A stretch of DNA of 64,000 nucleotides from Dehalococcoidia bacterium (GTDB lineage Bacteria > Chloroflexota > Dehalococcoidia > GIF9 > UBA5629). Location of the stretch: contig DUEX01000002.1 in assembly GCA_011170325.1 (NCBI GenBank), positions 1,462-65,461 of the forward strand, in the 5' to 3' direction. The number at the start of each line of letters is the position of its first letter. The first letter of the stretch is position 1. Below are positions 49,871-64,000 of this stretch, piece after piece. The translations under genes were made by a program, and so were the position numbers. The notes beneath the pieces were generated by a model. It was not told where the DNA came from. It saw only the letters and a program-made list of their open reading frames with translations, and made no database searches.

Positions 49871-50815
49871 TCAAAGCAAAAGGCTGTTAATGAAATCACG
49901 CTGCCCCCGAATAAACTCCTCAGCTAACATTTCTCGCCTCCCCTCCAATTGAACCTGAAGTAACCCTAGAACTCCGTCTCCAGTCTCAACTCCGACAGCC
50001 GCTGGGGCTGGCTGGGGCAAGGCTACCACTTTACCCACTTCGCCAGATTTTTCCCTAGCTAAGGGTACGACTTCATTAATCTTCAACCGCTTGCCTCGCC
50101 ACCAAGTGTAGCACCCTGGCCACAGGCCAAAGGCCCGGACTCGTCGCCACAATTCTAAAGCAGAAAGACGCCAGTCTATCTCTCCATCCCCTTTAGCTAC
50201 AACTTTTGTATAAGTAGCTTGACTCTCATCCTGGGGTTGTGGTTCGATTTTTCCCCCCAGCCACAAAGGCAGTGTCTCCGTCAGTAATTGAGCACCGGCT
50301 TGAGCCAGCTTACCGGTAAGTAAACGAGTCGTATCATCAGCAGAAACAGAAACCTTTCTTTGACTCAGAATGGGTCCGCTGTCTAGACCAATGTCCATTA
50401 ACATAATAGTGACCCCAGTGACCTCATCTCCTTGCAAAATAGCCGTGGCTATTGGTGATGAGCCACGATATCGAGGAAGAAGAGATGGATGGACATTAAG
50501 GCAGCCAAATCTGGGTAAATCTAATATTTCCGGTGGTAGAATGTGTCTGAAAGCTGCCACCACAATAAGCTCAGGAGCGAAACTAGCTAATCGGTCAACT
50601 GCACTACTATCCCTTAGTGTCTCTGGCTGAACCACTTGGAGTCCCTGAGACAACGCCAGCCCCTTTATCGGAGACAAAGCTACTCGCTGTCCTCGCCCAG
50701 CCCTCCTATCAGGTTGAGTATACACAGCAACTACTTGATAAGAGCTACGAATCAAAGACTGCAGGCTGGGCACAGCAAACTCCGGAGTGCCCATAAAAAT
50801 GATTCGCGTCCCCAT
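49871..50815 (-). CDS. fmt: Methionyl-tRNA formyltransferase.
   Basis: 314 aa. N-terminal RIIFMGTPEFAVPSL. Formyltransferase core (NVHPSLLPRYRG). Confidence 0.95.
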   Translation of the reverse strand: MGTRIIFMGTPEFAVPSLQSLIRSSYQVVAVYTQPDRRAGRGQRVALSPIKGLALSQGLQVVQPETLRDSSAVDRLASFAPELIVVAAFRHILPPEILDLPRFGCLNVHPSLLPRYRGSSPIATAILQGDEVTGVTIMLMDIGLDSGPILSQRKVSVSADDTTRLLTGKLAQAGAQLLTETLPLWLGGKIEPQPQDESQATYTKVVAKGDGEIDWRLSALELWRRVRAFGLWPGCYTWWRGKRLKINEVVPLAREKSGEVGKVVALPQPAPAAVGVETGDGVLGLLQVQLEGRREMLAEEFIRGQRDFINSLLL

Positions 50816-51037
50816 ACTTAGAATATTTTTAAACGATTCTCCCTATTATGTCAAAAACTCCCTTGACACCACCAAAGACCACTATGCTACGCTATAAGGG
50901 TATTTGAGAAGCTGCCTCAGTTTATTCCTTTCAGTTTATCCTCTTCCCAATTACTTGTAGTTTACTATACATACACTCATTCATGATACCTCCTTGCAAA
51001 GCTTTTAGCTTCTTTATCTAGGCCACAAAGCTAACTT

Positions 51038-52423
51038 TTGAGGGAAAGAGATAAATTGAGGTCAGCACAAGAAATTTGGGAAGCAGCTCTAGGAGAGCTC
51101 CAAATTCAAGTTAGCAAGCCAAACTATGATACTTGGCTGAAGGATACTGCAGGTGTAAGTTATCAAGATGACCTTTTCGTGGTCAGCGTTCCCAACGTCT
51201 TCATTGCTGAGTGGCTAAAAAATCGCCTCCTTTCCTTAGTAAAAAGGACTTTAGCCAGCATTATTGGTAGAAATGTTAATGTCCAATTTCTGATTCAGAC
51301 TCCTAGCCAAACTGACACCCACCTAGCCCACGCTTGGCAAGCTGATGGCGGGATAAGCTCAAAGCTAAAGGAGCCAATTAAACCACCCAGGTTTAATCAA
51401 AAGTATACCTTCGATACCTTCATCACTGGAGAGTCTAACCGTCTAGCTTATGCGGCTGCTTTAGAGGTTGCCGAAAAGCCGGGGCATACCTATAATCCAC
51501 TTTTTATTTACGGTGATACTGGTGTGGGCAAGACACATCTGCTACATGCCATCGGACACGCGGTCAAAGCCAACAGGCTCCAGACACTTTATGTTAGCGC
51601 TGAGCAGTTTACTAACGAGTTTGTAATTGCCATCAAAAATAAGAAAATCGAGGACTTTCACCACAAGTTTACGAGTGCCAGTGTTTTATTAGTTGATGAC
51701 ATCCAATTTCTAATCGGCAAAGCACAAACTCAGGAATGCTTCTTCCACATTTTTAACCACTTATATGACGATAACTGCCAAATTGTGGTCACCAGCGACC
51801 GCTCTCCAAGAGCTATGTCCCCGCTCGGCAGAAAATTGAGGTCACGCCTTGAATGGGGGCTCATCGCCGATATACAGCACCCAGATTCGGAAACATGTCT
51901 AACCATCCTAAGTGTTAAAGCAAAGCAGCTAAAGGTATCTATTTCACCGGAAGTACTACAGTTTCTAGCAACACAATTTCAGCATAATATTCGTGAGTTG
52001 GAAGGCGCCTTAAACCGAATAGTCACCTACGCGAAGCTAAGCGGCACAAATCTAGACCTACACTTAGCTACACAGGCACTGACAGATATAGTGGCAAAAG
52101 ACAATCGGCAAGAAGCCATGTTTACACCAAGGCTGATAATAGAGACTGTAGCTAATTATTATGCCCTCACCCCTGAAGCATTAACAGGTAAAATGAGGGA
52201 TAAGAAAACCGCTTTAGCTCGCCAAGTTGCTATGTACTTGCTACGCGAGCAAAACCACTGCCGCTTGGCTGAAATTGGCAAACTATTAGGAGATAGAGAC
52301 CACACAACTATACTCCACGGTTATGAAAAGATAGCTGCCGAAGTAAAGTCTGCCCCTCAGCTTAGTAAGTCGATTGAAGAAATCCGTCAAGGGCTAAAAA
52401 TCAACAGAAAAACTCCAACTTGA
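51038..52423 (+). CDS. dnaA: Chromosomal replication initiator DnaA.
   Basis: Walker A GDTGVGKTHLLHAIGH. Sensor motifs. C-terminal DNA-binding helix (LREQNHCRLAEIGKLLGDRDHTTILHG). TTG start at 51038 or 51056. Confidence 0.95.
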   Translation: MRERDKLRSAQEIWEAALGELQIQVSKPNYDTWLKDTAGVSYQDDLFVVSVPNVFIAEWLKNRLLSLVKRTLASIIGRNVNVQFLIQTPSQTDTHLAHAWQADGGISSKLKEPIKPPRFNQKYTFDTFITGESNRLAYAAALEVAEKPGHTYNPLFIYGDTGVGKTHLLHAIGHAVKANRLQTLYVSAEQFTNEFVIAIKNKKIEDFHHKFTSASVLLVDDIQFLIGKAQTQECFFHIFNHLYDDNCQIVVTSDRSPRAMSPLGRKLRSRLEWGLIADIQHPDSETCLTILSVKAKQLKVSISPEVLQFLATQFQHNIRELEGALNRIVTYAKLSGTNLDLHLATQALTDIVAKDNRQEAMFTPRLIIETVANYYALTPEALTGKMRDKKTALARQVAMYLLREQNHCRLAEIGKLLGDRDHTTILHGYEKIAAEVKSAPQLSKSIEEIRQGLKINRKTPT

Positions 52424-52604
52424 TTTTGCCCTTGTGGAAGAGTTAGGCAAGATCGTGGATAACTCTGCTAGTTTGTTGATAAGCCCAATAGATTGCAATA
52501 TCGCCTTATTCCTTTCATAATATATAATCCTATCCACATAGAAACTTACCTTAGATGTTATTATTAAAAAATACCTATTCCCTTTAAATATTCAGAAATA
52601 TAAT
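52424..52604. promoter_or_regulatory. Candidate oriC: DnaA-box cluster plus AT-rich unwinding element between dnaA and obg.
   Basis: DnaA-box-like 9-mers TTGTGGAAG (52432-52440), CGTGGATAA (52454-52462), TGTTGATAA (52474-52482) and CTATCCACA (52530-52538, reverse orientation). Followed by an AT-rich 52556-52604 stretch (ttattattaaaaaatacctattccctttaaatattcagaaatataat). Confidence 0.5.
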
Positions 52605-54270: not shown

Positions 54271-56199
<1,929 letters not shown>

Positions 56200-56320
56200 T
56201 TAGCTAGAGATATAACGATTCACCAGCAATTCTAGATTAGGAATAATGGGTGCGGAGGACGACTTGCTAATCCCATATTTAGTGCCTGTGAAACCAAATT
56301 GCGCAAGGGATTGCATTGAA

Positions 56321-56352
56321 CTTATTATATCATATTGTGCTACAAATTGAAA
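56321..56352 (-). promoter_or_regulatory. Extended -10 promoter (TGATATAAT) directed toward gyrB, immediately downstream of repeat copy A.
   Basis: Minus-strand sequence: ...motif-TTTCAA-17-TGATATAAT. -10 at 56324-56329. Gives a ~130-nt gyrB leader. Confidence 0.4.
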
Positions 56353-56380
56353 GGCTAAAATATTAGGGATGTGCGAAACT
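56353..56380 (-). repeat. Copy A of a ~27-bp conserved element (AGTTTCGCACATCCCTAATATTTTAGCC on the minus strand).
   Basis: 19/19 identity (AGTTTCGCACATCCCTAAT) plus a similar palindromic tail to copy B at 57611-57637. Inverted orientation relative to copy B. Confidence 0.7.
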
Positions 56381-56589
56381 ACTCTGTCTACAAAAGAAGG
56401 TGCTGAGTCAACAGTCACCCAGTCTTGAACTCTGCAAAGCTGAGTTTCAATCCCGTTGTCCAACTAGCTTCAAGTGGCTTCCCTAGTGAATATTAACCAC
56501 GGGAGTAAGTAGCAGTTCGCTGTGTCTTTCAGGTAATGCGCGAAGGGAATCAGGGCAGTTTACGGCATTCTCTCAACATGTTGCCAGGC

Positions 56590-57477
56590 TCACTTGGGAG
56601 ATTGCAAGGCTTCCAGCAGTAGGTCGGCAAGGAATTTCACCTGTTCCCCCTTAGGTGCCCTGCGTTGCAGCCGGCCGTAACAGGCCATACAGGGAGTGAC
56701 CAAGGTACTCATACCATATTTCTGAGCGTATTGAAAGATTGCATCAGGAGCGATGACACAACAGTACCTGGGAATGTCAAGCACCTCGAGCCCGTCTATC
56801 TGGTCCAACCAAGCTCGATAGTTAGACCAGTTCAACTCCCAGTCACGCTTAGGAACATATACCCAGCTACGGTGTTGTCCGCCCGGGAAGTAGGCGATCC
56901 CCGTGGGCTGGCTCAGGCGCAGGGATGCCTGACGCATTGGCTCGTCCAGCTTGTCCAGATAGTACAGTTGCTCCACATCACAGTCAGGATAAAACTGCCG
57001 GGCTAGATAGATGCACCAAGAACACAAGTATAGGATTCGCTTAGCTCCTAGTTCTCGTGCTTGGTTAATGTTCATCGCTATCAACTCTTTGGCTGCCAAG
57101 TCGGCTTCACGCCTATTTTCGCCTCTCCTCACTTGGTAGGCTATCATCGGTGCGCCGCAGCAGTACTCCTTTTCTAGTAGCGTGTAATCTATACCCAAGT
57201 TGTCCAAGAGGTGGAAAGCAGCCCATACGGCATCTAGGGTGCCGTAACAAGCACAACCTACAACCACGACATTTTCTGACCCTTCCCTCTTTCGCCTGAT
57301 GCCTAGACCTCCTAGTACGGCATCGCGCAAGACGGGGACAGTGTAGACGAGTCCACTCCTTCTAGCATCTTCTATTAATTGCTCCAGGTTCCTGCCTGCC
57401 TCAATAAGTTCATGTGCTCTCCGTGGTATTGAACGAATGCCTCGCACATGGCGTGTCATCTGAAACCTCCTTGCCAT
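56590..57477 (-). CDS. CCG-domain (HdrB/GlcF-like) cysteine-rich Fe-S protein.
   Basis: 295 aa. Two Cys-rich domains with CxnCCGxmCxxC-type spacing (VGCACYG...YCCGAP...CSWC; YCCVIAP...CMACYG). The probable real start is the second Met at 57459, which has a perfect AGGAGG RBS. Confidence 0.55.
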   Translation of the reverse strand: MARRFQMTRHVRGIRSIPRRAHELIEAGRNLEQLIEDARRSGLVYTVPVLRDAVLGGLGIRRKREGSENVVVVGCACYGTLDAVWAAFHLLDNLGIDYTLLEKEYCCGAPMIAYQVRRGENRREADLAAKELIAMNINQARELGAKRILYLCSWCIYLARQFYPDCDVEQLYYLDKLDEPMRQASLRLSQPTGIAYFPGGQHRSWVYVPKRDWELNWSNYRAWLDQIDGLEVLDIPRYCCVIAPDAIFQYAQKYGMSTLVTPCMACYGRLQRRAPKGEQVKFLADLLLEALQSPK

Positions 57478-57610
57478 AAGAACGTTCTTAACATAGCCCA
57501 GTACGCGCCCATAAGGCTAGCTACTATTCTTCATGATTCTACCACCAGAATACCTTGGGGTAAACTATTTTCTTAGCGGCAAATTGTTATGCCGACTCAG
57601 GTTTGATTTG

Positions 57611-57637
57611 AGTTTCGCACATCCCTAAATATTTAGG
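57611..57637 (+). repeat. Copy B of the ~27-bp conserved element (AGTTTCGCACATCCCTAAATATTTAGG), containing the perfect 14-bp palindrome CCTAAATATTTAGG.
   Basis: Direct read. The palindrome is its own reverse complement. Located 4 nt upstream of the cdh -35 box. Confidence 0.7.
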
Positions 57638-57641
57638 ATTG

Positions 57642-57670
57642 TTGACACCTATGCGGTGGGCTGATAAAAT
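57642..57670 (+). promoter_or_regulatory. Sigma70-like promoter of the acsE/cdh operon: TTGACA-17-TAAAAT.
   Basis: TTGACA 57642-57647, 17-nt spacer, TAAAAT 57665-57670. ~40 nt before the acsE start, with an AAGGGGGA RBS. Confidence 0.55.
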
Positions 57671-57708
57671 GTTTTTTGGTTTGGCTCAATTAGGATAAAG
57701 GGGGATAA

Positions 57709-58587
57709 ATGGTTCTAATTGGTGAAAGCATTCACATCATTTCTAAGCAGGTGAGCGACGCTGTAAGGGATCAAAATCCGAAGGTAATTCAGGATTTGGC
57801 TATAGCTCAGGCTGAAGCTGGGGCTGACTATATAGACTTAAATCTTGGCCCGGCGAGAAAGAACCCGGAAGAGGTAACGCAGTGGCTGGTTAATACGATT
57901 CAAGAGGTCACTGATGTACCGCTGTCGATTGATACCTTGAACCCCGTAGCTATGGAAGCGGGTCTTAAAGCGTGCAAGAAAAGACCTTTGCTTAACTCCT
58001 CCTCAGGGAGGACCGACAGCAAGGACCAAATGCTACCTTTGGCCAAGAAATACTCTACTGATGTAGTCATCTCGGTGCTGACTGATAAAGGTTGTCCCCC
58101 TGACGTCGACTCGAGGACAGAGAGCATTATGGAGACAGTTGCCTATGCCAATGAGCTTGGCATTCCCAATGAGGATATCTGGGTTGACCCTATTATCTTA
58201 CCTGTCAGCGCTGACCAGAAACAGGTTGCTGAGGCTGCGGAATTCATAAAGATACTATCTGACCTCCTGCCTGGCGTTAAATCAACAGTAGGGCTGTCAA
58301 ATGTGTCCAACGGGACACCTGATGAGCTTAGAGGTATCCTTAATCGTACCTATATGGTAATGCTGGGGAGAAACGGACTATATTCGGCAATTGCCGATGT
58401 CCTGGACAAGGAGCTTATAAGCTTGAATAAAGGTAAACTGCCTAACGTTGTCGACCTTATTTATAAGACGATGGATGGAGAGACTGTAGATATAGCTTCC
58501 TTGTCACAAAAAGAACAGGATTATGTGAAAACCACCAAAGTGCTCATGGGAGAGACACTTTATTCTCACGCTTGGCTTGAGAGTTAG
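57709..58587 (+). CDS. acsE: Methyltetrahydrofolate:corrinoid/iron-sulfur protein methyltransferase (pterin-binding, AcsE-like).
   Basis: 292 aa. N-terminal LIGESIHIIS (compare LIGERIN of pterin-binding MeTr/AcsE), LDLNLGPA, VGLSNVSNG. Family-level similarity from memory of AcsE. Confidence 0.75.
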   Translation: MVLIGESIHIISKQVSDAVRDQNPKVIQDLAIAQAEAGADYIDLNLGPARKNPEEVTQWLVNTIQEVTDVPLSIDTLNPVAMEAGLKACKKRPLLNSSSGRTDSKDQMLPLAKKYSTDVVISVLTDKGCPPDVDSRTESIMETVAYANELGIPNEDIWVDPIILPVSADQKQVAEAAEFIKILSDLLPGVKSTVGLSNVSNGTPDELRGILNRTYMVMLGRNGLYSAIADVLDKELISLNKGKLPNVVDLIYKTMDGETVDIASLSQKEQDYVKTTKVLMGETLYSHAWLES

Positions 58588-58610
58588 GATTCTCGGTAAA
58601 GGAGTGAACA

Positions 58611-59516
58611 ATGGAATACAAAGCACCTTTGGAGACCTATTCTGGAAAAGTGGGCGAGGTAGTGATTGGAAAGGGAGAAAAAGCTATAAAGATTGGTGGG
58701 GAGAGTGTTCTCCCCTTTCATTTTTTTGAGGGAACAATTGAAAATCGGCCACGGATTGCTTTAGAAGTTTATGATACTGAGCCAGAGGGTTGGGCGGAAT
58801 GGGTACGTGAGCCGTATAAGGATGTTCTTTCAGACCCAGCTGGGTGGGCGAAGAAGTGCTTGGACTTTGGTGCTGACCTTGTCTGTCTCCGCTTGGCGAG
58901 CACCGACCCAGCCGGGGCAAATGCTCCGGCTGACAAGGCTGCCGATATGGTTAAGCAGGTAGTATCAGCTATAAAGGCGCCGGTTATCGTCTGTGGTTCG
59001 GGGGATGAGGCGAAGGATGTTGAGGTGTTGACCAAGGTGGCGGAAGTCTGTGATGGCGATAAGCTCCTGTTAGGTCCGGTGGTCAAGGAGAACTACGAGC
59101 TGATAAGCAAGGCAGCTTTGGACCACGGACATTGCATAATCGCCCAGACCCCACTGGATATAAATTTGGAGAAGGAGTTGAACGTAAAGCTTTTGAAGTC
59201 TTTGCCTCTTGACAGGATAGTCATCGACCCGCTGAGTTCAGCTCTAGGTTATGGCATGGAATACAGCTTCACCATAATGGAGAGAACCAAGCATATCGGG
59301 GTCATGTTTGGAGATGGCACGATGCAGATGCCCATCATTGCTGACCTTGGCGGCGAGTGCTGGAAGACGAAACAGGCTAAAGAAAGCCAGGAGCAGGGTC
59401 TTCTGTGGGAAAGCGTCACTGCTCTCAGCCTTCTCTTGGCTGGAGCTAATATCCTGGTGCTGAGGCATCCTGAAAGCCTCAAGTTGATGAGGGAAGTTGT
59501 TGATGGGAGAATATAA
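58611..59516 (+). CDS. acsD: Corrinoid/iron-sulfur protein small subunit (AcsD / CdhD delta-type).
   Basis: 301 aa. LPFHFFEG, GADLVCLRL, NLLLGP, IIAQTPLDINL, LDRIVIDP, GYGMEYSFTIMER, LLAGANILVLRHPE. Closely tracks the Moorella AcsD pattern. Confidence 0.8.
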   Translation: MEYKAPLETYSGKVGEVVIGKGEKAIKIGGESVLPFHFFEGTIENRPRIALEVYDTEPEGWAEWVREPYKDVLSDPAGWAKKCLDFGADLVCLRLASTDPAGANAPADKAADMVKQVVSAIKAPVIVCGSGDEAKDVEVLTKVAEVCDGDKLLLGPVVKENYELISKAALDHGHCIIAQTPLDINLEKELNVKLLKSLPLDRIVIDPLSSALGYGMEYSFTIMERTKHIGVMFGDGTMQMPIIADLGGECWKTKQAKESQEQGLLWESVTALSLLLAGANILVLRHPESLKLMREVVDGRI

Positions 59517-59580
59517 AATTGATAATGATTCTTAATATGTTGTATAATAGATATGAGTGACCTAGAAGGAGGTAAATCAG

Positions 59581-61887
59581 ATGGCGGTAGTTGAAAAGAA
59601 GAAGCATACGAGGAGGGACGAAGTCAATGAAATCATCAGGGCGGATGATTTGTGGGAACCAGTGGGGCATACACCAATGGCCGAAATCCCAGATTTGAGA
59701 AACTGGGATATGAGGCTGATGAAGCAGTATAAGCCGCTTTATGCGCCTATGTGTGATTTGTGCTGCTTCTGCACCTATGGCAAGTGTGACCTCACTGGCG
59801 ACAAGAGGGGGGCTTGCGGCATTGATATTTCTGCCCAGCAAGCCAGAGTTGTTCTCTTGGCCTGTTGTATGGGCATGTCAGCTCACGGTGGGCACGGCCG
59901 CCACGTGCTTCACTATTTGATTGAGAAATATGGCAGAGATTACCCAATCAATCTGGGAGACCAGGTAGCTGTAGAGGCGCCGCATATAAGGACAGTCCTC
60001 GGACTCAAGCCGGAAACTCTAGGCGACCTGGAAAAAGCTCTTGAGTATGTGGAGAGTCAGCTTATTCATCTCATCTCGTCTCTGCATACTGGTCAGGAGG
60101 GGTCGGCGCTTGACTATGAGTCGAAGGCGCTTCATGCTTCGATGTTGGACCATGTGGGCATGGAGGTTTGCGACATTGCTGAAATCGTGGGCTTCAATTT
60201 CCCAACATCTGTGGCTGATACGCCGCTGGTGGACATGGGCTGGGGGGCCATAGATAAAACAAAGCCAACGATTCTTCTGGTCGGGCATAATCCGGTCACC
60301 GCCGTCCCCATTGTTGACTACATAAACGAACATGGTCTGCAGGACAAAATTGAGGTTGGTGGTATATGCTGCACCGCCTTGGAAGTGACCAGATATAGCG
60401 AGAGAGCCAAGATAGTTGGTCCGCTATCCCGTCAGCTTTACTTTGTTAAGACCGGCTTCGCCGATGTTATCGTTACGGATGAGCAGTGCATCAGGACTGA
60501 TATGCCTCAGCAGGCTGCCGCAGTTGGCTCAGCCCTCATTGCCACCACCGACAAAGCTTCCTACGGGCTTGAGGATATGACTAAGAGAGAGGCTGATGAA
60601 ATAGTTAAGGATATGGTTAAGGGGAAGCAGACATTGATATTTGACCCGGAGAAGGCCGCTGAAGTGGCGGTAAAGGTAGCTTTGGAACTGGCGCCGAAAA
60701 GAAAGAAGGAACTGGTGACACCGGAGCAGGTGCCTGAGCTAGCTAAAGACCATCGGCTGTGCAATATGTGCAGCCAAGTTTGCCCCAATTTGCTGCCGGT
60801 TGGCGATGCCGTGGAAGCAGCTAAAAATGGCAATCTGGAGCCGTTAGCTGAGGTGTTCAGCAAATGTATCGGCTGTGGCAAATGTGAGCAGGAATGCCCC
60901 CGCCATGTGCCCATCTTCAAGATGATGCAGGCTGTAGCCGGAAGTGAAACATGGAAAGTCAGAGCCGGGCGAGGACCGGTTATGGATACCGAGATAAGGA
61001 AGGTTGGGGCGCCACTCGTCCTGGGCACTATACCCGGGATAATCGCCATTGTTGGCTGCTCCAATTTCCCTGAGGAAATCAACGAAGTAGCTGATATAGC
61101 TGAGGAGTTTGCCAAAAGAAAATACATTGTGGTGCTCACTGGTTGCTCAGCTATGACGGCCGGGATGAAGAAGGACAAGGAGGGCAAGACGCTTTATGAG
61201 AAATATCCGCCTGATTTCGATGCTGGCGGTGTTGTTAATATCGGTTCCTGTGTGGCTAATGCCCATATAACTGGCGCTGCCATGAAGGTGGCTAATATCT
61301 TTGCCACCTTACCTCTGAGGGGGAATTACGAGGTCATAGCTGACTACATTTTAAACCGGGTTGGTGCCTGTGGTCTGGCCTGGGGGGCTATGTCTCAGAA
61401 AGCAGCATCTATCGGCACGGGCTGCAACCGTTTGGGAATCCCGGTGGTCTTGGGTCCTCATTCCTCAAAATACAGAAGGCAATACGTAAGCCGCAAGGAG
61501 GAGGATGACTGGACGGTGATGGATGGCAGGGAAAGGAAGCTGGTGGATACTGAAGAGCCGTCGCCGGAGCATCTAGCTTATGTGGTAGAGTCCAAGGAAA
61601 GGGCGATAGTTACTATGGCTAAGTTGTGTATCAGGAAGAACGATACTCCTCAGGGGCGACAGATAAAACTTACCCATTATATTGCTTTGCACAAGCAGTA
61701 TCTGGGGACTTTGCCCGATGACCTTCATATATATGTGAGGAAAACTTCAGATATACCCATCTTCTTTAAGAAAGAAGTGATGGCATACTTGGAGAAAGTC
61801 GGCTGGAAGGAGAAACCAGTTCTGAGCCTGCCTACTCTGGTTGGGACTTATCCATCGGAGGTACCTTTAGACGCCGTTGTTCACTAG
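59581..61887 (+). CDS. cdhA: CO dehydrogenase catalytic subunit, archaeal CdhA (alpha) type with ferredoxin-like insert.
   Basis: 768 aa. N-terminal Cys cluster CDLCCFCTYGKCDL...GACG. Two 4Fe-4S ferredoxin motifs CNMCSQVCP and CIGCGKCEQECP. Conserved C-cluster Cys/His regions (HGGHGRH, GICCT, GSCVANAH). Confidence 0.8.
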   Translation: MAVVEKKKHTRRDEVNEIIRADDLWEPVGHTPMAEIPDLRNWDMRLMKQYKPLYAPMCDLCCFCTYGKCDLTGDKRGACGIDISAQQARVVLLACCMGMSAHGGHGRHVLHYLIEKYGRDYPINLGDQVAVEAPHIRTVLGLKPETLGDLEKALEYVESQLIHLISSLHTGQEGSALDYESKALHASMLDHVGMEVCDIAEIVGFNFPTSVADTPLVDMGWGAIDKTKPTILLVGHNPVTAVPIVDYINEHGLQDKIEVGGICCTALEVTRYSERAKIVGPLSRQLYFVKTGFADVIVTDEQCIRTDMPQQAAAVGSALIATTDKASYGLEDMTKREADEIVKDMVKGKQTLIFDPEKAAEVAVKVALELAPKRKKELVTPEQVPELAKDHRLCNMCSQVCPNLLPVGDAVEAAKNGNLEPLAEVFSKCIGCGKCEQECPRHVPIFKMMQAVAGSETWKVRAGRGPVMDTEIRKVGAPLVLGTIPGIIAIVGCSNFPEEINEVADIAEEFAKRKYIVVLTGCSAMTAGMKKDKEGKTLYEKYPPDFDAGGVVNIGSCVANAHITGAAMKVANIFATLPLRGNYEVIADYILNRVGACGLAWGAMSQKAASIGTGCNRLGIPVVLGPHSSKYRRQYVSRKEEDDWTVMDGRERKLVDTEEPSPEHLAYVVESKERAIVTMAKLCIRKNDTPQGRQIKLTHYIALHKQYLGTLPDDLHIYVRKTSDIPIFFKKEVMAYLEKVGWKEKPVLSLPTLVGTYPSEVPLDAVVH

Positions 61888-61915
61888 GAGTGAGTTGTAA
61901 GGTAGGAGAAACCGC

Positions 61916-62611
61916 ATGCGGGTTTTAATAGCTATACAGGGCTATTACGGTCAGAGAATGGTGGATAATATCAGGCAGCACTGTCCGGCCGACTGGGAGG
62001 TAAGTTCTTACACCTTCCCAGCGGAGTTACCAGCTATTATTGACGACCCTGCTGAACTTCTGCCTCGGGAGTTGCCGGCGGCTGATTTGCTCATATCTCT
62101 TGGTGAGCACCCTGGGGTAGCCCAGATGATTCCGGACATGGTGGAGAGGAGTCGTGCTAAAGCAGTGATCGCTCCGGCGGATAACCGTGCTTGGTTGCCG
62201 CCTGGCTTAGCCAGGCAAATTCAACGGAAGCTGGAATCTGTAGGGGTTGAGATGGTCTATCCAGTTCCCTTTTGTTCTTTAACAGAAAAGGATAGCCAAG
62301 ACCCTTATATTCGTGAGTTTGCTAGGTATTTCGGTAGACCCGAGGTCGATATAGATTTCGATAGAGACAGAATAAAGCAGGTCACTGTTATCAAAGAGGC
62401 TCCCTGTGGTAGCACCCGGTTCGTAGCTGATGGCTTGATTGGTGTCTGGGAAAGGGATGCTGTAGAGAAAGCTGGGCTTTTGCATCACCAGTATCCCTGT
62501 CTGGCAACGATGGTGATGGACCGGGAGTTTGAAGATACCTTGATGCACCGTGCTGGGCTTATGACTAAACTGGCAGTAGAGAGGGCTATCAAAAGCATTA
62601 AAGCAGCTTAA
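61916..62611 (+). CDS. Hypothetical protein inserted between cdhA and cdhB (possibly DUF166/COG1810-like).
   Basis: 231 aa. N-terminal beta-alpha-beta (RVLIAIQGYYGQRMVDNIRQHCP) but no P-loop, so not a CooC/AcsF ATPase. Confidence 0.4.
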   Translation: MRVLIAIQGYYGQRMVDNIRQHCPADWEVSSYTFPAELPAIIDDPAELLPRELPAADLLISLGEHPGVAQMIPDMVERSRAKAVIAPADNRAWLPPGLARQIQRKLESVGVEMVYPVPFCSLTEKDSQDPYIREFARYFGRPEVDIDFDRDRIKQVTVIKEAPCGSTRFVADGLIGVWERDAVEKAGLLHHQYPCLATMVMDREFEDTLMHRAGLMTKLAVERAIKSIKAA

Positions 62612-62629
62612 ACAAGGAGGTTCAATATC

Positions 62630-63181
62630 ATGACTACAACTTTACCATATCATAGGGTTAATGTGTTGACCGGGACTAAGGCGGCTAGAATTATTGAGGA
62701 TGCAGGAGAATATGCTCACCTGATTAAGCGAGCCCGGAGGCCTCTTCTGGTACTTGGGGCGCGAACTCTCACCATGTCTCTGGATGGGAGGCTTCTCATA
62801 GAGTATGCTGCGGACATAGCCAGCGCCATTGGTATTCCAATATGCGCTACTGCCCACACCAAGAAGAAGCTGCTCGAGCTAGGCGTTGAGCCAGCCAGCA
62901 GCTATGACATAACAGAGATAGTCAACCATCTCAAAGACCCGGAGTGGCGGGGAGTCAAAAAGGAAGGCAATCACGATTTGGTGATGTTTCTGGGATTCAG
63001 GACTGATTTTGGTGAGCAGGCTCTGTCGACATTGAAGCATTATGCTCAGCACCTCAAAACTATGACTCTGTGCAAATATTACTATCCTCACGCCAGTTAT
63101 TCCCTTCCTAATCTCAAGGACGAGAAGTGGAAGGAATTCCTGGATAATCTGATAACTAATTTAAAGGAGAAGGAGGCATAA
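62630..63181 (+). CDS. cdhB: CODH/ACS epsilon subunit (CdhB-like).
   Basis: 183 aa. Size and position after cdhA match archaeal cdhB. Rossmann-like N-terminus (RPLLVLGARTL). No direct motif proof. Confidence 0.55.
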   Translation: MTTTLPYHRVNVLTGTKAARIIEDAGEYAHLIKRARRPLLVLGARTLTMSLDGRLLIEYAADIASAIGIPICATAHTKKKLLELGVEPASSYDITEIVNHLKDPEWRGVKKEGNHDLVMFLGFRTDFGEQALSTLKHYAQHLKTMTLCKYYYPHASYSLPNLKDEKWKEFLDNLITNLKEKEA

Positions 63182-63182
63182 A

Positions 63183-64000
63183 ATGGCAGGAATTTTCCCA
63201 GTAGATGTTGGACCCCAATATGAGGGCGAAGTAATCAGAAAAGGCGACATGTATGTCGAGTTTGGCGGGCCAGAAGTAAAAAGCAAGTTTGAGTTGGTAA
63301 CTCTAAAGAGCCCTGATGAAGTTGAGAACGAGAAGATAGAGGTTGTCGGGCCGAACATAGCTGATATGAAGGAAGGGGCGAGTTATCCCATGGCTCTAAT
63401 GATCGATGTTGCCGGTGCTGGGTTAGAGAAGGATATGGAGCCCGTCTTGGAGAGAAGGATACACCTCTATACTAATTACATAGAGGGGCTGTATCATATG
63501 AATCAGAGACAGGATATGTGGCTTAGGTTAAACAAGGACTCCTTTGCTAAGGGGCTTAATTCGCTTGAAGAGATAGGCAAGATACTAATGTTCCTTTATA
63601 CCTCGGAGATAGATATCATCGAGAAGATTTCCATGACTTTTATTACCGATGAGAAGAAGGTAGAAGAGCTTCTGACTGAAGCCATGAAAATCTATAATGA
63701 GAGAGATGAAAAAGCCAGGGGGTTGAAGGAAGAGGATGTAGAGGAGTTTTATAGCTGTGCCTTGTGTCAGAGTTTTGCGCCGACTCATATATGTGCCATA
63801 ACTCCAGAGAGAATTGCCAATTGTGGGGCAATAAACTGGTTTGATGGCAAAGCTGCCTATAAGCTTGACCCAGAGGGGCCAATACAAGAAGTTAAGAAAG
63901 GTGAGCCCATAGACCCGATAAGGGGCGAGTACACAGGGGCTAATCAGCTAGCTGCAGAAAAATCAATGGGAGCTTATACGCGCGTTTATCTCCACAGTGC
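63183..64000 (+). CDS. cdhC: Acetyl-CoA synthase catalytic (beta) subunit CdhC/AcsB, 3'-truncated by the window end.
   Basis: ATG at 63183, 1 nt after the cdhB stop. Translation MAGIFPVDVGPQYEGEV...YSCALCQSFAPTHICAITPERIANCGAINWFDG. Contains the A-cluster Cys region characteristic of ACS. Confidence 0.85.
   Translation, partial: MAGIFPVDVGPQYEGEVIRKGDMYVEFGGPEVKSKFELVTLKSPDEVENEKIEVVGPNIADMKEGASYPMALMIDVAGAGLEKDMEPVLERRIHLYTNYIEGLYHMNQRQDMWLRLNKDSFAKGLNSLEEIGKILMFLYTSEIDIIEKISMTFITDEKKVEELLTEAMKIYNERDEKARGLKEEDVEEFYSCALCQSFAPTHICAITPERIANCGAINWFDGKAAYKLDPEGPIQEVKKGEPIDPIRGEYTGANQLAAEKSMGAYTRVYLHS

What the first reader, a model, noticed from the sequence alone, without database searches (positions are those of the whole stretch)
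57709..64000. Hybrid bacterial/archaeal acetyl-CoA decarbonylase/synthase operon: acsE-acsD-cdhA(archaeal alpha)-unknown-cdhB(epsilon)-cdhC
The operon combines a bacterial-style methyltransferase (AcsE) and CFeSP small subunit (AcsD) with an archaeal-type CODH alpha subunit carrying the two-ferredoxin insert and a CdhB-like epsilon subunit. The gene order is not the canonical archaeal cdhABC-(cooC)-DE. A 231-aa non-ATPase ORF sits between cdhA and cdhB. No CFeSP large subunit (AcsC/CdhE) or CooC maturase occurs within the visible part. The Dehalococcoidia-like housekeeping context is notable because cultivated Dehalococcoides lack CODH.
Basis: partly seen in the sequence, partly recalled or inferred. 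Interest (0 to 1): 0.6.

Follow-up and report, generated by a model that had tools for sequence, protein, structure and literature searches.

The report
Known hybrid CODH/ACS operon with DUF166
This is a real but already described kind of gene cluster: a Dehalococcoidia bacterium makes or splits acetyl-CoA with an archaeal-type carbon monoxide dehydrogenase joined to bacterial methyl-transfer proteins. The only poorly understood part is a small conserved helper protein (DUF166) sitting inside it.

Summary
All six ORFs are at the stated coordinates, and profile searches confirm every call. These are an AcsE-like methyltransferase, a short AcsD/CdhD, an archaeal-type CdhA with the ferredoxin insert, CdhB, and a CdhC lacking the bacterial N-terminal domain.

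The "unknown" 231-aa ORF is a DUF166 (PF02593) protein. A 99.8% identical contig shows the operon continuing as CdhC, AcsC, NuoE-like, NuoF-like (HydB/Bfu type) and CooC.

The window's proteins are already in GenBank from a Dehalococcoidia MAG. The "hybrid six-subunit CODH/ACS" is published for Chloroflexi, NPL-UPA2, Desulforudis, Acetothermia and Deltaproteobacteria. The same 10-gene order recurs in other Dehalococcoidia and in about 11 Desulfobacterota-type MAGs.

The lead worth keeping is DUF166:
- GenBank labels it "thymidylate synthase".
- A preprint reports it is required for autotrophy in Methanococcus maripaludis.
- 31 of 80 genomic loci place it beside CODH/ACS genes.
- One lineage fuses it to a CooS-type CODH.
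- It keeps three invariant Cys and two near-invariant His.
- A confident model (pLDDT 97) matches no solved structure.

I read DUF166 as a CODH accessory or maturation factor. That role is inferred, not shown.

The parts
57642..57670 (+). Sigma-70-like promoter match (TTGACA-17-TAAAAT, TG-extended, 11 of 12), 39 nt upstream of the acsE start codon.
   Evidence: This is a consensus match only; the total number of matches in the region is not above the shuffled expectation. It lies in the 231-nt divergent intergenic region 57478-57708.
57709..58587 (+). acsE-like methyl-tetrahydrofolate:corrinoid/Fe-S protein methyltransferase (292 aa).
   Evidence: PF00809 74.7 bits. NF005719 235 bits (cut-off 259) and NF040758 188 bits (cut-off 370). 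Best solved relatives are the MeTr structures 2yci (E 4.5e-52) and 1f6y (E 5.6e-46).
58611..59516 (+). acsD/cdhD, the short bacterial-length CFeSP small (delta) subunit (301 aa).
   Evidence: PF03599 163 bits. NF003376 373.6 bits, above its cut-off of 280.
59519..59548 (+). Second sigma-70-like match (TTGATA-18-TATAAT, 11 of 12) in the 64-nt acsD-cdhA spacer. It may be an internal promoter.
   Evidence: Consensus match only.
59581..61887 (+). cdhA, the archaeal-type CODH alpha subunit (768 aa).
   Evidence: TIGR00314 1105.6 bits (cut-off 781.3), against 73.8 bits for the CooS model TIGR01702. Best solved relatives are ACDS alpha chains 8riu_A (902.6 bits), 9c0q_A and 3cf4_A; bacterial CODHs reach at most 80 bits. 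Twenty Cys positions are conserved in 18 of 18 aligned CdhA sequences.
60751..60900 (+). Ferredoxin-like insert of CdhA (residues 391-440). Motif 1 is H391-x2-C394-x2-C397-x3-C401-P and motif 2 is C429-x2-C432-x2-C435-x3-C439-P.
   Evidence: Fer4_9/Fer4_10 hits at residues 393-442. Alignment to 8riu. The first ligand position is His in all 10 Dehalococcoidia CdhA examined and Cys in all 8 non-Dehalococcoidia sequences examined.
61916..62611 (+). DUF166/COG1810 protein (231 aa), inferred to be a CODH/ACS accessory factor. GenBank labels it 'thymidylate synthase'.
   Evidence: PF02593 198.4 bits over the full length. It is identical to HEX75100.1. C120, C164, G165 and C195 are invariant, and H191 and H211 nearly so, across 80 genomic loci. 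The AF2 model has pLDDT 97.1 and no solved structural relative. The knock-out phenotype is in preprint 10.1101/2024.03.05.583561.
62630..63181 (+). cdhB, the archaea-type epsilon subunit (183 aa).
   Evidence: PF02552 103.6 bits. TIGR00315 138.7 bits, above its cut-off of 101.2. It is identical to HEX75101.1.
63183..64000 (+). cdhC (acetyl-CoA synthase, A-cluster subunit). The first 272 codons are present; the gene is cut by the window end.
   Evidence: PF03598 plus PF19436. TIGR00316 374.7 bits, above its cut-off of 355.95. It aligns to positions 303-568 of the bacterial AcsB model NF007078, so it lacks the roughly 300-aa N-terminal domain. The full length is 408 aa in L001.

Best explanation
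The region is the first six genes of a 10-gene operon for a bacterial 'hybrid' CO dehydrogenase/acetyl-CoA synthase in a Dehalococcoidia bacterium. The full order is acsE-acsD-cdhA-duf166-cdhB-cdhC-acsC-nuoE-like-nuoF-like-cooC.

Shown by homology:
- CdhA with CdhB forms the archaeal-type CODH that interconverts CO2 and CO at a Ni-Fe-S C-cluster.
- CdhC, which lacks the bacterial AcsB N-terminal domain, carries the A-cluster that joins CO, a methyl group and CoA.
- AcsC and AcsD form the corrinoid Fe-S protein.
- AcsE loads that protein with a methyl group from methyl-tetrahydrofolate, the bacterial methyl branch.
- CooC is the Ni-insertion ATPase.

Inferred:
- DUF166 is an accessory factor of the CODH subunit. 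Most likely it is a Cys/His metal- or cluster-handling maturation partner working with CooC (my estimate about 0.45). Alternatively it is a redox-activating partner or subunit (about 0.3).
- The NuoE/NuoF-like pair has the architecture of the flavin/NAD(H) module of Bfu-type electron-bifurcating enzymes. It probably links ferredoxin-level CODH electrons to NAD(H).

The direction of flux, acetyl-CoA synthesis or oxidation, cannot be read from the sequence.
For: The downstream genes are on L001 (99.83% identical over 11.4 kb):
- AcsC: NF003195 571.5 bits.
- NuoE-like: NF005722 142 bits.
- NuoF-like, 640 aa: full-length matches of 700-744 bits to HydB, NfnB and NiFe-HydB chains (7q4v_B, 9n5u_B, 7t2r_B, 9bov_B, 8oh5_B).
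- CooC-like: best hit is CooC1 3kje (E 5e-22), with a GKGGVGKT P-loop and a CYC motif.

The same operon occurs in four independent assemblies. It also occurs in other Dehalococcoidia (L085, L091, L092) and in about 11 Desulfobacterota-type MAGs.

The hybrid type is described in PMC6305446 and PMC9586279.

Evidence on DUF166:
- Preprint: the M. maripaludis knock-out cannot fix CO2 and is complemented in trans. The gene is cofit with cdhA and cooC2 (r 0.94-0.99).
- 31 of 80 genomic DUF166 loci carry CODH/ACS genes within 10 kb.
- It sits directly next to CooC in ANME-1, Desulfurococcales and Firmicutes-type loci.
- P0339 is a DUF166::CooS fusion (TIGR01702 711.7 bits), encoded at the end of a hybrid operon.
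- Seven deltaproteobacterial loci show a SufBD/ABC-ATPase-DUF166 arrangement.
- Cys120, Cys164 and Cys195 are invariant, and His191 and His211 nearly so.
Against: - No biochemical data exist for any hybrid-type complex. PMC6305446 states that no cultivated organism has one.
- AcsE scores below both NCBIfam curated cut-offs.
- The downstream half of the operon is read from a near-identical contig, not from the window itself.
- DUF166 is not fixed in the operon. L086 and L087 have the same synteny without it, and 12 Dehalococcoidia loci carry it alone. A stoichiometric subunit role is therefore not required.
- Distant DUF166 subfamilies in Actinomycetota and Asgard archaea have unrelated neighbours.
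- Metal binding by DUF166 is inferred from conserved residues only. I could not obtain model coordinates to check whether those residues cluster in space.
- The window's operon contains no NuoG-like 'A' subunit, so how NuoEF would dock is unknown.
Confidence: 0.85

Rival explanations
1. DUF166 is not a maturation factor. It is a redox partner or loosely bound subunit of the CODH, for example a thiol/selenol- or Fe-S-based protein that reductively activates the C-cluster or passes electrons to it.
For: - The family has selenocysteine-containing members: COG1810 selenoproteins in Olavius symbionts (PMC1976440) and the NCBIfam model 'DfsP'. Sec is typical of redox-active sites.
- The covalent fusion to a CooS-type CODH fits a stoichiometric partner better than a transient chaperone.
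- The conserved Cys120 and Cys164 sit at helix N-termini in the model.
Against: - Frequent direct adjacency to CooC and to SufBD-type assembly genes points to assembly.
- The gene is dispensable from the operon in close relatives.
- No classical CxxC or ferredoxin motif is present.
- I know of no DUF166 chain in the published ACDS structures, but this was not tested. The top PDB sequence hits to DUF166 are noise.
Confidence: 0.3
2. The 231-aa ORF is a thymidylate synthase, as labelled in GenBank and IMG, and merely happens to lie inside the operon.
For: Source names for HEX75100.1 and many homologues read 'thymidylate synthase'. Some distant family members lie next to ribonucleotide reductase.
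Against: - The Pfam scan finds only PF02593 and no ThyA or ThyX domain.
- There is no sequence or fold similarity to any solved enzyme.
- The M. maripaludis mutant is defective only in autotrophic growth, not when acetate is supplied.
- The gene is embedded with 18-28 nt gaps between cdhA and cdhB, and is fused to CODH elsewhere.
Confidence: 0.03
3. The 'hybrid' is an assembly or binning chimera, or a very recent archaeal island, rather than a native bacterial operon.
For: The CdhA, CdhB and CdhC genes score as archaeal families, and the source is a metagenome-assembled genome.
Against: - The identical arrangement is in four independent assemblies from JGI, ENA and NCBI.
- In a 1.39-Mb contig it is contiguous with fmt-dnaA-obg-nadD-gyrB.
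- GC content of 0.47-0.51 matches the rest of the window.
- More than 120 CdhA clusters at 77-93% identity carry Dehalococcoidia or Chloroflexi labels wherever a name is given. The nearest archaeal relative examined (ANME-1) is 64% identical.
- The literature infers an ancient single transfer followed by spread among bacteria (PMC6305446, PMC9586279).
Confidence: 0.02

Closest known systems
Hybrid six-subunit CODH/ACS of bacteria: Chloroflexi bacterium RBG_13_51_36, NPL-UPA2 Unc8, Ca. Desulforudis audaxviator, type II Acetothermia (PMC6305446; PMC9586279; both citing Adam et al. 2018 PNAS)
   Same: Both have an archaeal-like CdhA, CdhB and CdhC plus bacterial AcsC, AcsD and AcsE in one cluster. 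The window's CdhA is 84% identical to that of a Chloroflexi RBG_13 MAG (P0170, locus L085), which has the same AcsD-CdhA-DUF166-CdhB order. A NuoEF pair near the cluster was already noted for Unc8.
   Different: There is no difference in kind. The papers I could read do not mention the DUF166 gene. In Unc8 and Acetothermia it lies between acsE and acsD rather than between cdhA and cdhB. All Dehalococcoidia CdhA examined carry His instead of the first Cys of the ferredoxin insert.
Archaeal acetyl-CoA decarbonylase/synthase (ACDS; CdhABCDE of Methanosarcina and relatives; PDB 3cf4, 9c0q, 8riu)
   Same: CdhA (903 bits to 8riu_A), CdhB and the N-terminally short CdhC are of this type.
   Different: - Archaea use methyl-H4MPT/H4SPT and have no AcsE; here an AcsE homologue of folate-dependent MeTr is present.
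- CdhD here is the short, roughly 300-aa bacterial-length form.
- The gene order differs.
- NuoEF-like genes are included.
Bacterial CODH/ACS of Moorella thermoacetica and Carboxydothermus (AcsA, AcsB, AcsC, AcsD, AcsE)
   Same: The methyl-transfer module (AcsC, AcsD, AcsE) and the overall chemistry are the same.
   Different: - The CODH here is CdhA type with a ferredoxin insert, not AcsA/CooS type (TIGR01702 scores only 73.8 bits).
- A CdhB epsilon subunit is present.
- The ACS subunit lacks the AcsB N-terminal domain.
Methanococcus maripaludis DUF166 (MMP_RS05055; bioRxiv 10.1101/2024.03.05.583561)
   Same: Both belong to Pfam family PF02593 and both are genomically associated with CODH/ACS and CooC.
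   Different: The M. maripaludis gene lies in a separate, divergent operon with cooC2. Here the gene is inserted between cdhA and cdhB of a bacterial operon. I did not retrieve the M. maripaludis sequence, so identity was not measured; archaeal family members retrieved here are 33-45% identical.
Incomplete Wood-Ljungdahl pathway of cultivated Dehalococcoides mccartyi (Zhuang et al. 2014, as cited in PMC6113397)
   Same: Same bacterial class, and an acetyl-CoA synthase with corrinoid protein genes is present.
   Different: D. mccartyi lacks CO dehydrogenase and is poisoned by the CO it releases. This MAG encodes a complete CODH module with CooC.
Bfu-type electron-bifurcating enzymes (HydABC, NiFe-HydABCSL, NfnABC, StnABC), B and C subunits
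   Same: The downstream 640-aa NuoF-like protein matches HydB, NfnB and NiFe-HydB over its full length (700-744 bits), including the extra N- and C-terminal Fe-S domains. It is preceded by a NuoE/HydC-like gene.
   Different: This operon has no NuoG/HydA-like 'A' subunit, although Firmicutes/NPL-UPA2-type clusters do have a 472-aa NuoG-N-terminal-like protein. Bifurcation is untested.

Membership tests
Archaeal-type CODH alpha subunit CdhA (TIGR00314) | Scores above the curated equivalog cut-off and better than the bacterial CooS/AcsA model. | tested here: met
   1105.6 bits against a cut-off of 781.3. TIGR01702 scores only 73.8 bits against a cut-off of 478. Top PDB hits are ACDS alpha chains.
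Archaeal-type CODH alpha subunit CdhA (TIGR00314) | Ferredoxin-like insert carrying two [4Fe-4S] binding motifs (clusters E and F). | tested here: met
   The insert is present at residues 391-440. Motif 2 is complete (CxxCxxCxxxCP). Motif 1 is HxxCxxCxxxCP, with His in place of the first Cys in every Dehalococcoidia sequence examined. Whether the His ligates a cluster is untested.
Archaeal-type CODH alpha subunit CdhA (TIGR00314) | Conserved Cys ligands of the B, C and D clusters. | tested here: met
   Cys 58, 61, 62, 64, 69, 79, 263, 264, 303, 493, 522, 557 and 683 are conserved in 18 of 18 aligned CdhA sequences. Assigning each Cys to a cluster rests on general knowledge of CODH structures and was not tested.
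Archaeal-type CODH alpha subunit CdhA (TIGR00314) | Ni-Fe-S cluster content and CO/CO2 activity. | not testable with these tools
   Requires purified protein.
CdhB epsilon subunit (TIGR00315 / PF02552) | Scores above the curated cut-off and is encoded with cdhA. | tested here: met
   138.7 bits against a cut-off of 101.2, and PF02552 103.6 bits. It is one gene (DUF166) downstream of cdhA.
CdhC-type acetyl-CoA synthase (TIGR00316) | Scores above the cut-off and lacks the roughly 300-aa AcsB N-terminal domain. | tested here: met
   374.7 bits against a cut-off of 355.95, using only 272 residues. It aligns to positions 303-568 of the 710-position bacterial AcsB model. The full length is 408 aa on L001.
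AcsE methyl-H4folate:CFeSP methyltransferase (NF005719 / NF040758) | Scores above the curated NCBIfam cut-off. | tested here: not met
   235 bits against 259, and 188 bits against 370. The Pfam Pterin_bind domain is met (74.7 against 25.5). The best solved relatives are the two MeTr enzymes (E 4.5e-52 and 5.6e-46). It is therefore a divergent AcsE-like protein, and the functional assignment is by homology and operon context.
CFeSP small subunit AcsD/CdhD (NF003376) | Scores above the curated cut-off and has the short, roughly 300-aa form. | tested here: met
   373.6 bits against a cut-off of 280, over the full length of a 313-position profile.
Hybrid six-subunit CODH/ACS (as defined in PMC6305446, after Adam et al. 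2018) | CdhA, CdhB and CdhC of archaeal type together with AcsC, AcsD and AcsE of bacterial type, in one cluster in a bacterium. | tested here: met
   Five of the six genes are in the window. AcsC (NF003195 571.5 bits) is on the 99.83% identical contig L001. The bacterial host is supported by the Dehalococcoidia MAG label and by synteny with dnaA and gyrB.
DUF166 (PF02593 / COG1810) | Full-length match above the Pfam gathering score. | tested here: met
   198.4 bits against 24.4, covering residues 6-226 of the protein and positions 3-220 of the 221-position profile.
DfsP, the DUF166-family selenoprotein (NF041372) | Scores above the curated cut-off and has Sec at the conserved site. | tested here: not met
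   74.8 bits against a cut-off of 200, with only residues 112-226 matched. There is no in-frame stop codon in the ORF, and all conserved sites are Cys.
Thymidylate synthase (the database label of HEX75100.1) | Presence of a ThyA or ThyX catalytic domain. | tested here: not met
   The Pfam scan at E<=0.01 returns only PF02593. No similarity to solved thymidylate synthases was found by sequence or fold.
CooC Ni-insertion ATPase (downstream, on L001) | Deviant Walker A P-loop, CxC metal motif, and closest similarity to CooC. | tested here: met
   GKGGVGKT and C-Y-C motifs are present in the translation. The best PDB hit is CooC1 3kje at E 5e-22; the next best is MinD at 3.7e-11. No curated CooC model matched in NCBIfam.
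Bfu-type NuoF/HydB subunit (downstream, on L001) | NuoF core plus an N-terminal [2Fe-2S]-type domain and a C-terminal 2x[4Fe-4S] domain, paired with a NuoE/HydC-like gene. | tested here: met
   Alignments span residues 21-614 with HydB, NfnB and NiFe-HydB chains at 700-744 bits, against about 370 bits (core only) for complex I Nqo1. A NuoE-like gene overlaps the end of acsC. Electron bifurcation itself is not testable here.

The most novel reading that the evidence does not exclude
DUF166 may be a missing, widely conserved maturation or activation factor of Ni-CODH. On this reading it is a Cys3/His2 metal- or cluster-handling protein with a fold unlike any solved structure. It would act directly on the CODH catalytic subunit together with CooC. 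Its insertion between cdhA and cdhB here, and its fusion to CooS elsewhere, would mark that physical partnership.

A second, independent possibility concerns the HydB/HydC-like NuoEF pair. It could make the bacterial hybrid CODH/ACS an NAD(H)-coupled, possibly flavin-based electron-bifurcating, CO2-reducing machine.
Probability: 0.3. Interest if true: 0.65.

Novelty: new member of a known kind. Interest (0 to 1): 0.3.

Why it matters
The operon itself adds little. It is one more instance of a published enzyme type, and its proteins are already in GenBank. It does confirm that many uncultivated Dehalococcoidia, unlike cultivated Dehalococcoides, carry a complete carbonyl branch of the Wood-Ljungdahl pathway.

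The useful lead is DUF166:
- The M. maripaludis preprint reports it is needed for CODH/ACS-dependent autotrophy.
- Public databases mislabel it as thymidylate synthase.
- A dedicated 2026 survey of CODH genomic context (PMC13056359) does not mention it.
- Here it is tied to CODH by operon insertion, CooC adjacency and a CODH fusion.

If DUF166 is a maturation or activation factor, it could explain the difficulty of producing active CdhA-type CODH heterologously (my speculation). That would also make the long-unclear assembly of the C-cluster more testable.

The conserved NuoEF/HydBC-like pair raises a testable question: how do these bacteria supply low-potential electrons for CO2 reduction?

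Tried and rejected
- **Riboswitch or other RNA upstream of acsE.** An Rfam scan of 56000-64000 at E<=1 found nothing.
- **First structure prediction.** A shallow alignment of close homologues left the C-terminal third unmodelled (pLDDT 75). It was replaced by the diverse-alignment model (pLDDT 97.1).
- **Genome scan with alignment A2.** The 36-sequence alignment was too diverse for the search for related loci, so I used a smaller alignment.
- **Selenocysteine in DUF166 homologues.** None of the 80 loci had an in-frame stop at the conserved Cys positions.
- **Thymidylate synthase label.** Rejected; see the rival explanations.
- **Chimera or recent archaeal island.** Rejected on the basis of four independent assemblies, synteny and composition.
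- **Literature on NuoEF-like genes in CODH/ACS clusters.** One passing remark for Unc8. A targeted search gave no papers, and the eLife context survey does not mention them.
- **Common theme among stand-alone DUF166 loci.** Only the deltaproteobacterial SufBD cluster was consistent. Neighbours in Actinomycetota and Asgard archaea were heterogeneous.

Full report
**Observation**

They are separated by gaps of 23, 64, 28, 18 and 1 nt.

Profile searches confirm each assignment:
- 57709-58587 is a pterin-binding methyltransferase. It is most similar to methyl-H4folate:CFeSP methyltransferase: NF005719 scores 235 bits, just below its cut-off of 259. The best solved relatives are the MeTr structures 2yci and 1f6y.
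- 58611-59516 is a short AcsD/CdhD (NF003376, 373.6 bits).
- 59581-61887 is CdhA. TIGR00314 scores 1105.6 bits against a cut-off of 781.3, while the bacterial CooS model scores only 73.8 bits.
- 62630-63181 is CdhB (TIGR00315, 138.7 against 101.2).
- The ORF from 63183 is CdhC. TIGR00316 is above its cut-off even though the gene is truncated by the window end. The ORF aligns to positions 303-568 of the bacterial AcsB model, so the AcsB N-terminal domain is absent.

**The CODH subunit**

The best solved relatives of CdhA are archaeal ACDS alpha chains: 8riu_A at 902.6 bits, then 9c0q_A and 3cf4_A. Bacterial CODHs reach at most 80 bits.

The ferredoxin-like insert is present at residues 391-440. 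Twenty cysteines are conserved in all 18 CdhA sequences I aligned.

One detail is lineage-specific. The first ligand position of the first [4Fe-4S] motif is His (H391) in all ten Dehalococcoidia sequences. It is Cys in the deltaproteobacterial, NPL-UPA2, ANME-1, Firmicutes-type, Acetothermia and Psychracetigena sequences and in 8riu.

**What lies beyond the window**

An exact-sequence look-up of CdhB found four independent assemblies. The longest, L001, is 99.83% identical to the window over the 11.4 kb they share.

L001 continues as follows:
- CdhC, 408 aa.
- AcsC/CdhE: NF003195, 571.5 bits.
- A NuoE-like gene.
- A 640-aa NuoF-like gene.
- A CooC-like ATPase. Its best PDB hit is CooC1 3kje, and it has a GKGGVGKT P-loop and a CYC motif.

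After CooC come convergent mutL and uvrD genes.

The NuoF-like protein matches the B subunits of Bfu-type bifurcating enzymes over its full length at 700-744 bits. These include HydB 7q4v, NfnB 9n5u, NiFe-HydB 7t2r, 9bov and 8oh5. Complex I NuoF matches only the core, at about 370 bits.

**Organism and provenance**

The window's CdhA, DUF166 and CdhB are identical to GenBank entries HEX75099.1, HEX75100.1 and HEX75101.1. These come from a 'MAG TPA: Dehalococcoidia bacterium' contig of 71.5 kb.

In GenBank, CdhA is labelled 'subunit epsilon' and DUF166 is labelled 'thymidylate synthase'.

More than 120 CdhA clusters at 77-93% identity exist, and wherever a name is given it is Dehalococcoidia or Chloroflexi.

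A 1.39-Mb Dehalococcoidia contig (L086) shows the same neighbourhood as the window: fmt, dnaA, obg, nadD, gyrB, then the operon.

GC content across the operon (0.47-0.51) matches the rest of the window. An assembly chimera or a recent archaeal island is therefore very unlikely.

**Comparison with the literature**

PMC6305446, citing Adam et al. 2018, defines the 'Bacteria/Archaea hybrid six-subunit CODH/ACS'. It has archaeal CdhA, CdhB and CdhC with bacterial AcsC, AcsD and AcsE. The paper lists Chloroflexi bacterium RBG_13_51_36, Ca. Desulforudis audaxviator and NPL-UPA2 as carriers. It also remarks that a nuoEF set lies near the cluster in Unc8.

PMC9586279 describes the same type in Acetothermia. 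It places the bacterial CdhABC clade, Chloroflexi and Deltaproteobacteria included, next to class I methanogens.

The window's CdhA is 84% identical to that of a Chloroflexi RBG_13 MAG. That MAG's locus (L085) has the same AcsD-CdhA-DUF166-CdhB order.

The core finding is therefore real and correctly interpreted, but it is another member of a known kind.

**How conserved the gene order is**

I scanned one genome per species with a DUF166 alignment and retrieved 80 loci. I then mapped the operon's proteins onto them by tblastn.
- CooC-AcsE-AcsD-CdhA-DUF166-CdhB-CdhC-AcsC-NuoE-NuoF occurs in about 11 Deltaproteobacteria, Thermodesulfobacteriota and Syntrophaceae-type MAGs.
- AcsE-DUF166-AcsD-CdhA-CdhB-CdhC-AcsC occurs in Acetothermia, in NPL-UPA2 and in MAGs labelled Thermotogae.
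- CooC-DUF166-CdhA-CdhB-CdhC occurs in an ANME-1 archaeon.
- Two further Dehalococcoidia contigs (L091, L092) have exactly the window's 10-gene order.
- L086 and L087 have the same operon and neighbourhood without DUF166.
- Twelve Dehalococcoidia loci, including RBG_13_51_36, carry DUF166 alone among unrelated genes.

The order is thus standard for bacterial hybrid clusters, and the position of DUF166 is the variable element.

**The 231-aa ORF**

It is a full-length DUF166/COG1810 protein (PF02593, 198.4 bits). The family is small: about 400 clusters at 50% identity among 1.84 billion representative proteins.

Its links to CODH are as follows:
1. A preprint (10.1101/2024.03.05.583561) reports that transposon insertions in and deletion of the M. 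maripaludis DUF166 gene abolish autotrophic growth. The defect is complemented in trans. The gene is cofit (r 0.94-0.99) with every cdh gene and with the adjacent cooC2.
2. 31 of the 80 genomic loci carry CODH/ACS genes within 10 kb, in bacteria and archaea of many phyla. My rough estimate is that chance adjacency would account for at most a few percent.
3. DUF166 lies directly beside a CooC gene in ANME-1, Desulfurococcales and Firmicutes-type loci.
4. One representative (P0339, 878 aa) is a DUF166 domain fused to a bona fide CooS-type CODH (TIGR01702, 711.7 bits). It is encoded as the last gene of a hybrid operon, CooC-AcsE-AcsD-CdhA-CdhB-CdhC-AcsC.
5. In seven deltaproteobacterial MAGs, a stand-alone copy follows an ABC ATPase and a SufBD-type Fe-S assembly protein. 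A putative heavy-metal exporter lies next to them.

**Sequence and structure of DUF166**

C120, C164, G165 and C195 are invariant in all 80 loci, and H191 and H211 are nearly so.

Selenocysteine-containing members exist elsewhere (PMC1976440; the NCBIfam DfsP model). This protein is an all-Cys form and scores below the DfsP cut-off.

With a diverse alignment, AlphaFold2 gives a very confident two-domain alpha/beta model (pLDDT 97.1, pTM 0.92). Foldseek against the PDB finds nothing at E <= 1e-3. The best TM-score is 0.33, to generic Rossmann-like folds. A family profile finds no solved relative either.

No ThyA or ThyX domain is present, so the 'thymidylate synthase' label is unsupported.

**Mechanism**

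Shown by homology:
- CdhA and CdhB interconvert CO2 and CO.
- CdhC condenses CO, a methyl group and CoA.
- AcsC and AcsD carry the methyl group on cobalt.
- AcsE takes the methyl group from methyl-tetrahydrofolate.
- CooC inserts Ni.

FolD next to the deltaproteobacterial versions, and MTHFR next to L092, fit the bacterial folate branch.

Inferred:
- DUF166 acts on the CODH subunit. I favour a metal- or cluster-handling maturation partner of CooC (about 0.45). The alternative is a redox-activating partner or subunit (about 0.3), which the selenoprotein relatives and the covalent fusion make plausible.
- The NuoEF/HydBC-like pair couples the complex to NAD(H), possibly by flavin-based bifurcation. 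This operon has no NuoG-like subunit. Firmicutes and NPL-UPA2-type clusters do carry a 472-aa NuoG-N-terminal-like protein.

The direction of flux cannot be inferred from sequence.

**Regulation**

Two 11-of-12 sigma-70-like matches fall in the two largest intergenic gaps: 57642-57670 before acsE and 59519-59548 before cdhA. The overall number of matches is no higher than in shuffled sequence, so these are only candidates.

No Rfam family matches the region.

**Verdict**

It is a new member of a known, published kind, and the exact proteins are already deposited.

The residual interest lies in DUF166. It is a mislabelled, structurally unprecedented protein reported to be essential for autotrophy, and it is not mentioned in a dedicated 2026 survey of CODH genomic context (PMC13056359). 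A lesser point of interest is the conserved HydBC-like pair.

Noticed in passing
window 50000-52500: GC skew changes sign at about 52 kb, and the cumulative skew has its minimum at 50-52 kb, next to dnaA (51038-52423). This is a likely replication origin. The CODH/ACS operon starts about 5 kb further on, co-directional with the leading strand. The same fmt-dnaA-obg-nadD-gyrB-acsE synteny occurs in L086 and L087.
   Followed up: partly
window 60751-60753 (CdhA residue H391): The first ligand position of the first [4Fe-4S] motif of the CdhA ferredoxin insert is His in all 10 Dehalococcoidia CdhA examined. It is Cys in the 8 non-Dehalococcoidia sequences examined, including 8riu. This may alter a cluster's potential or the electron entry/exit site.
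   Followed up: partly
window 56590-57477 (- strand): A 295-aa CCG-domain protein (HdrB/GlpC-like; PF02754 32 bits) is transcribed divergently from acsE. It is present only in the near-identical contig L001 and is absent at this position in L086, L087, L091 and L092.
   Followed up: partly
L001 13155-15575 (downstream of the window end): NuoE-like and 640-aa NuoF-like genes lie between acsC and cooC. The NuoF-like protein matches Bfu-type HydB, NfnB and NiFe-HydB subunits over its full length (700-744 bits). The pair is conserved in Dehalococcoidia and Desulfobacterota hybrid operons.
   Followed up: partly
L088 10001-12637 (GCA_002292015.1): A natural fusion (P0339, 878 aa) joins a DUF166 domain to a CooS-type CODH. 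It is encoded as the last gene of a hybrid operon, CooC-AcsE-AcsD-CdhA-CdhB-CdhC-AcsC.
   Followed up: yes
L020-L023, L025, L027, L039 (deltaproteobacterial MAGs): Stand-alone DUF166 genes sit in a conserved cluster: M50 peptidase, ArsP_2-type 10-TM metal exporter, ABC ATPase, SufBD-like protein, DUF166, then an FMN-reductase/LMW-phosphatase fusion.
   Followed up: partly
GenBank records HEX75099.1 and HEX75100.1 (window 59581-61887 and 61916-62611): The public annotation is wrong or unsupported. CdhA is named 'subunit epsilon' and DUF166 is named 'thymidylate synthase'. The same labels recur on many homologues.
   Followed up: yes
L086 19646-20059; L087 16026-16439; L092 17566-17979: A 137-aa DUF3786 gene follows cooC (or cooC plus a rhodanese gene) in several Dehalococcoidia versions of the operon. 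It is not seen in L001.
   Followed up: no
L024, L041-L044, L046, L047: Firmicutes, NPL-UPA2 and related hybrid clusters carry a 472-aa Fe-S protein after NuoF. It resembles the N-terminal part of NuoG/HydA (Fer2_4, NADH-G_4Fe-4S_3, Fer4). L024 and L043 have two tandem DUF166 copies.
   Followed up: no
L069-L084 (Actinomycetota and Asgard archaeal MAGs): Distant DUF166 subfamilies (31-37% identity, diverged N-terminus) have no CODH/ACS neighbours. They lie instead near ribonucleotide reductase, a small NIR_SIR/4Fe-4S protein or thiamine genes. The CODH link therefore may not hold for the whole family.
   Followed up: partly
L054 8715-11555 (uncultured archaeon): Here DUF166 lies between a molybdopterin oxidoreductase-like gene and methenyl-H4MPT cyclohydrolase (MCH). 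This is a methyl-branch rather than a CODH context.
   Followed up: no
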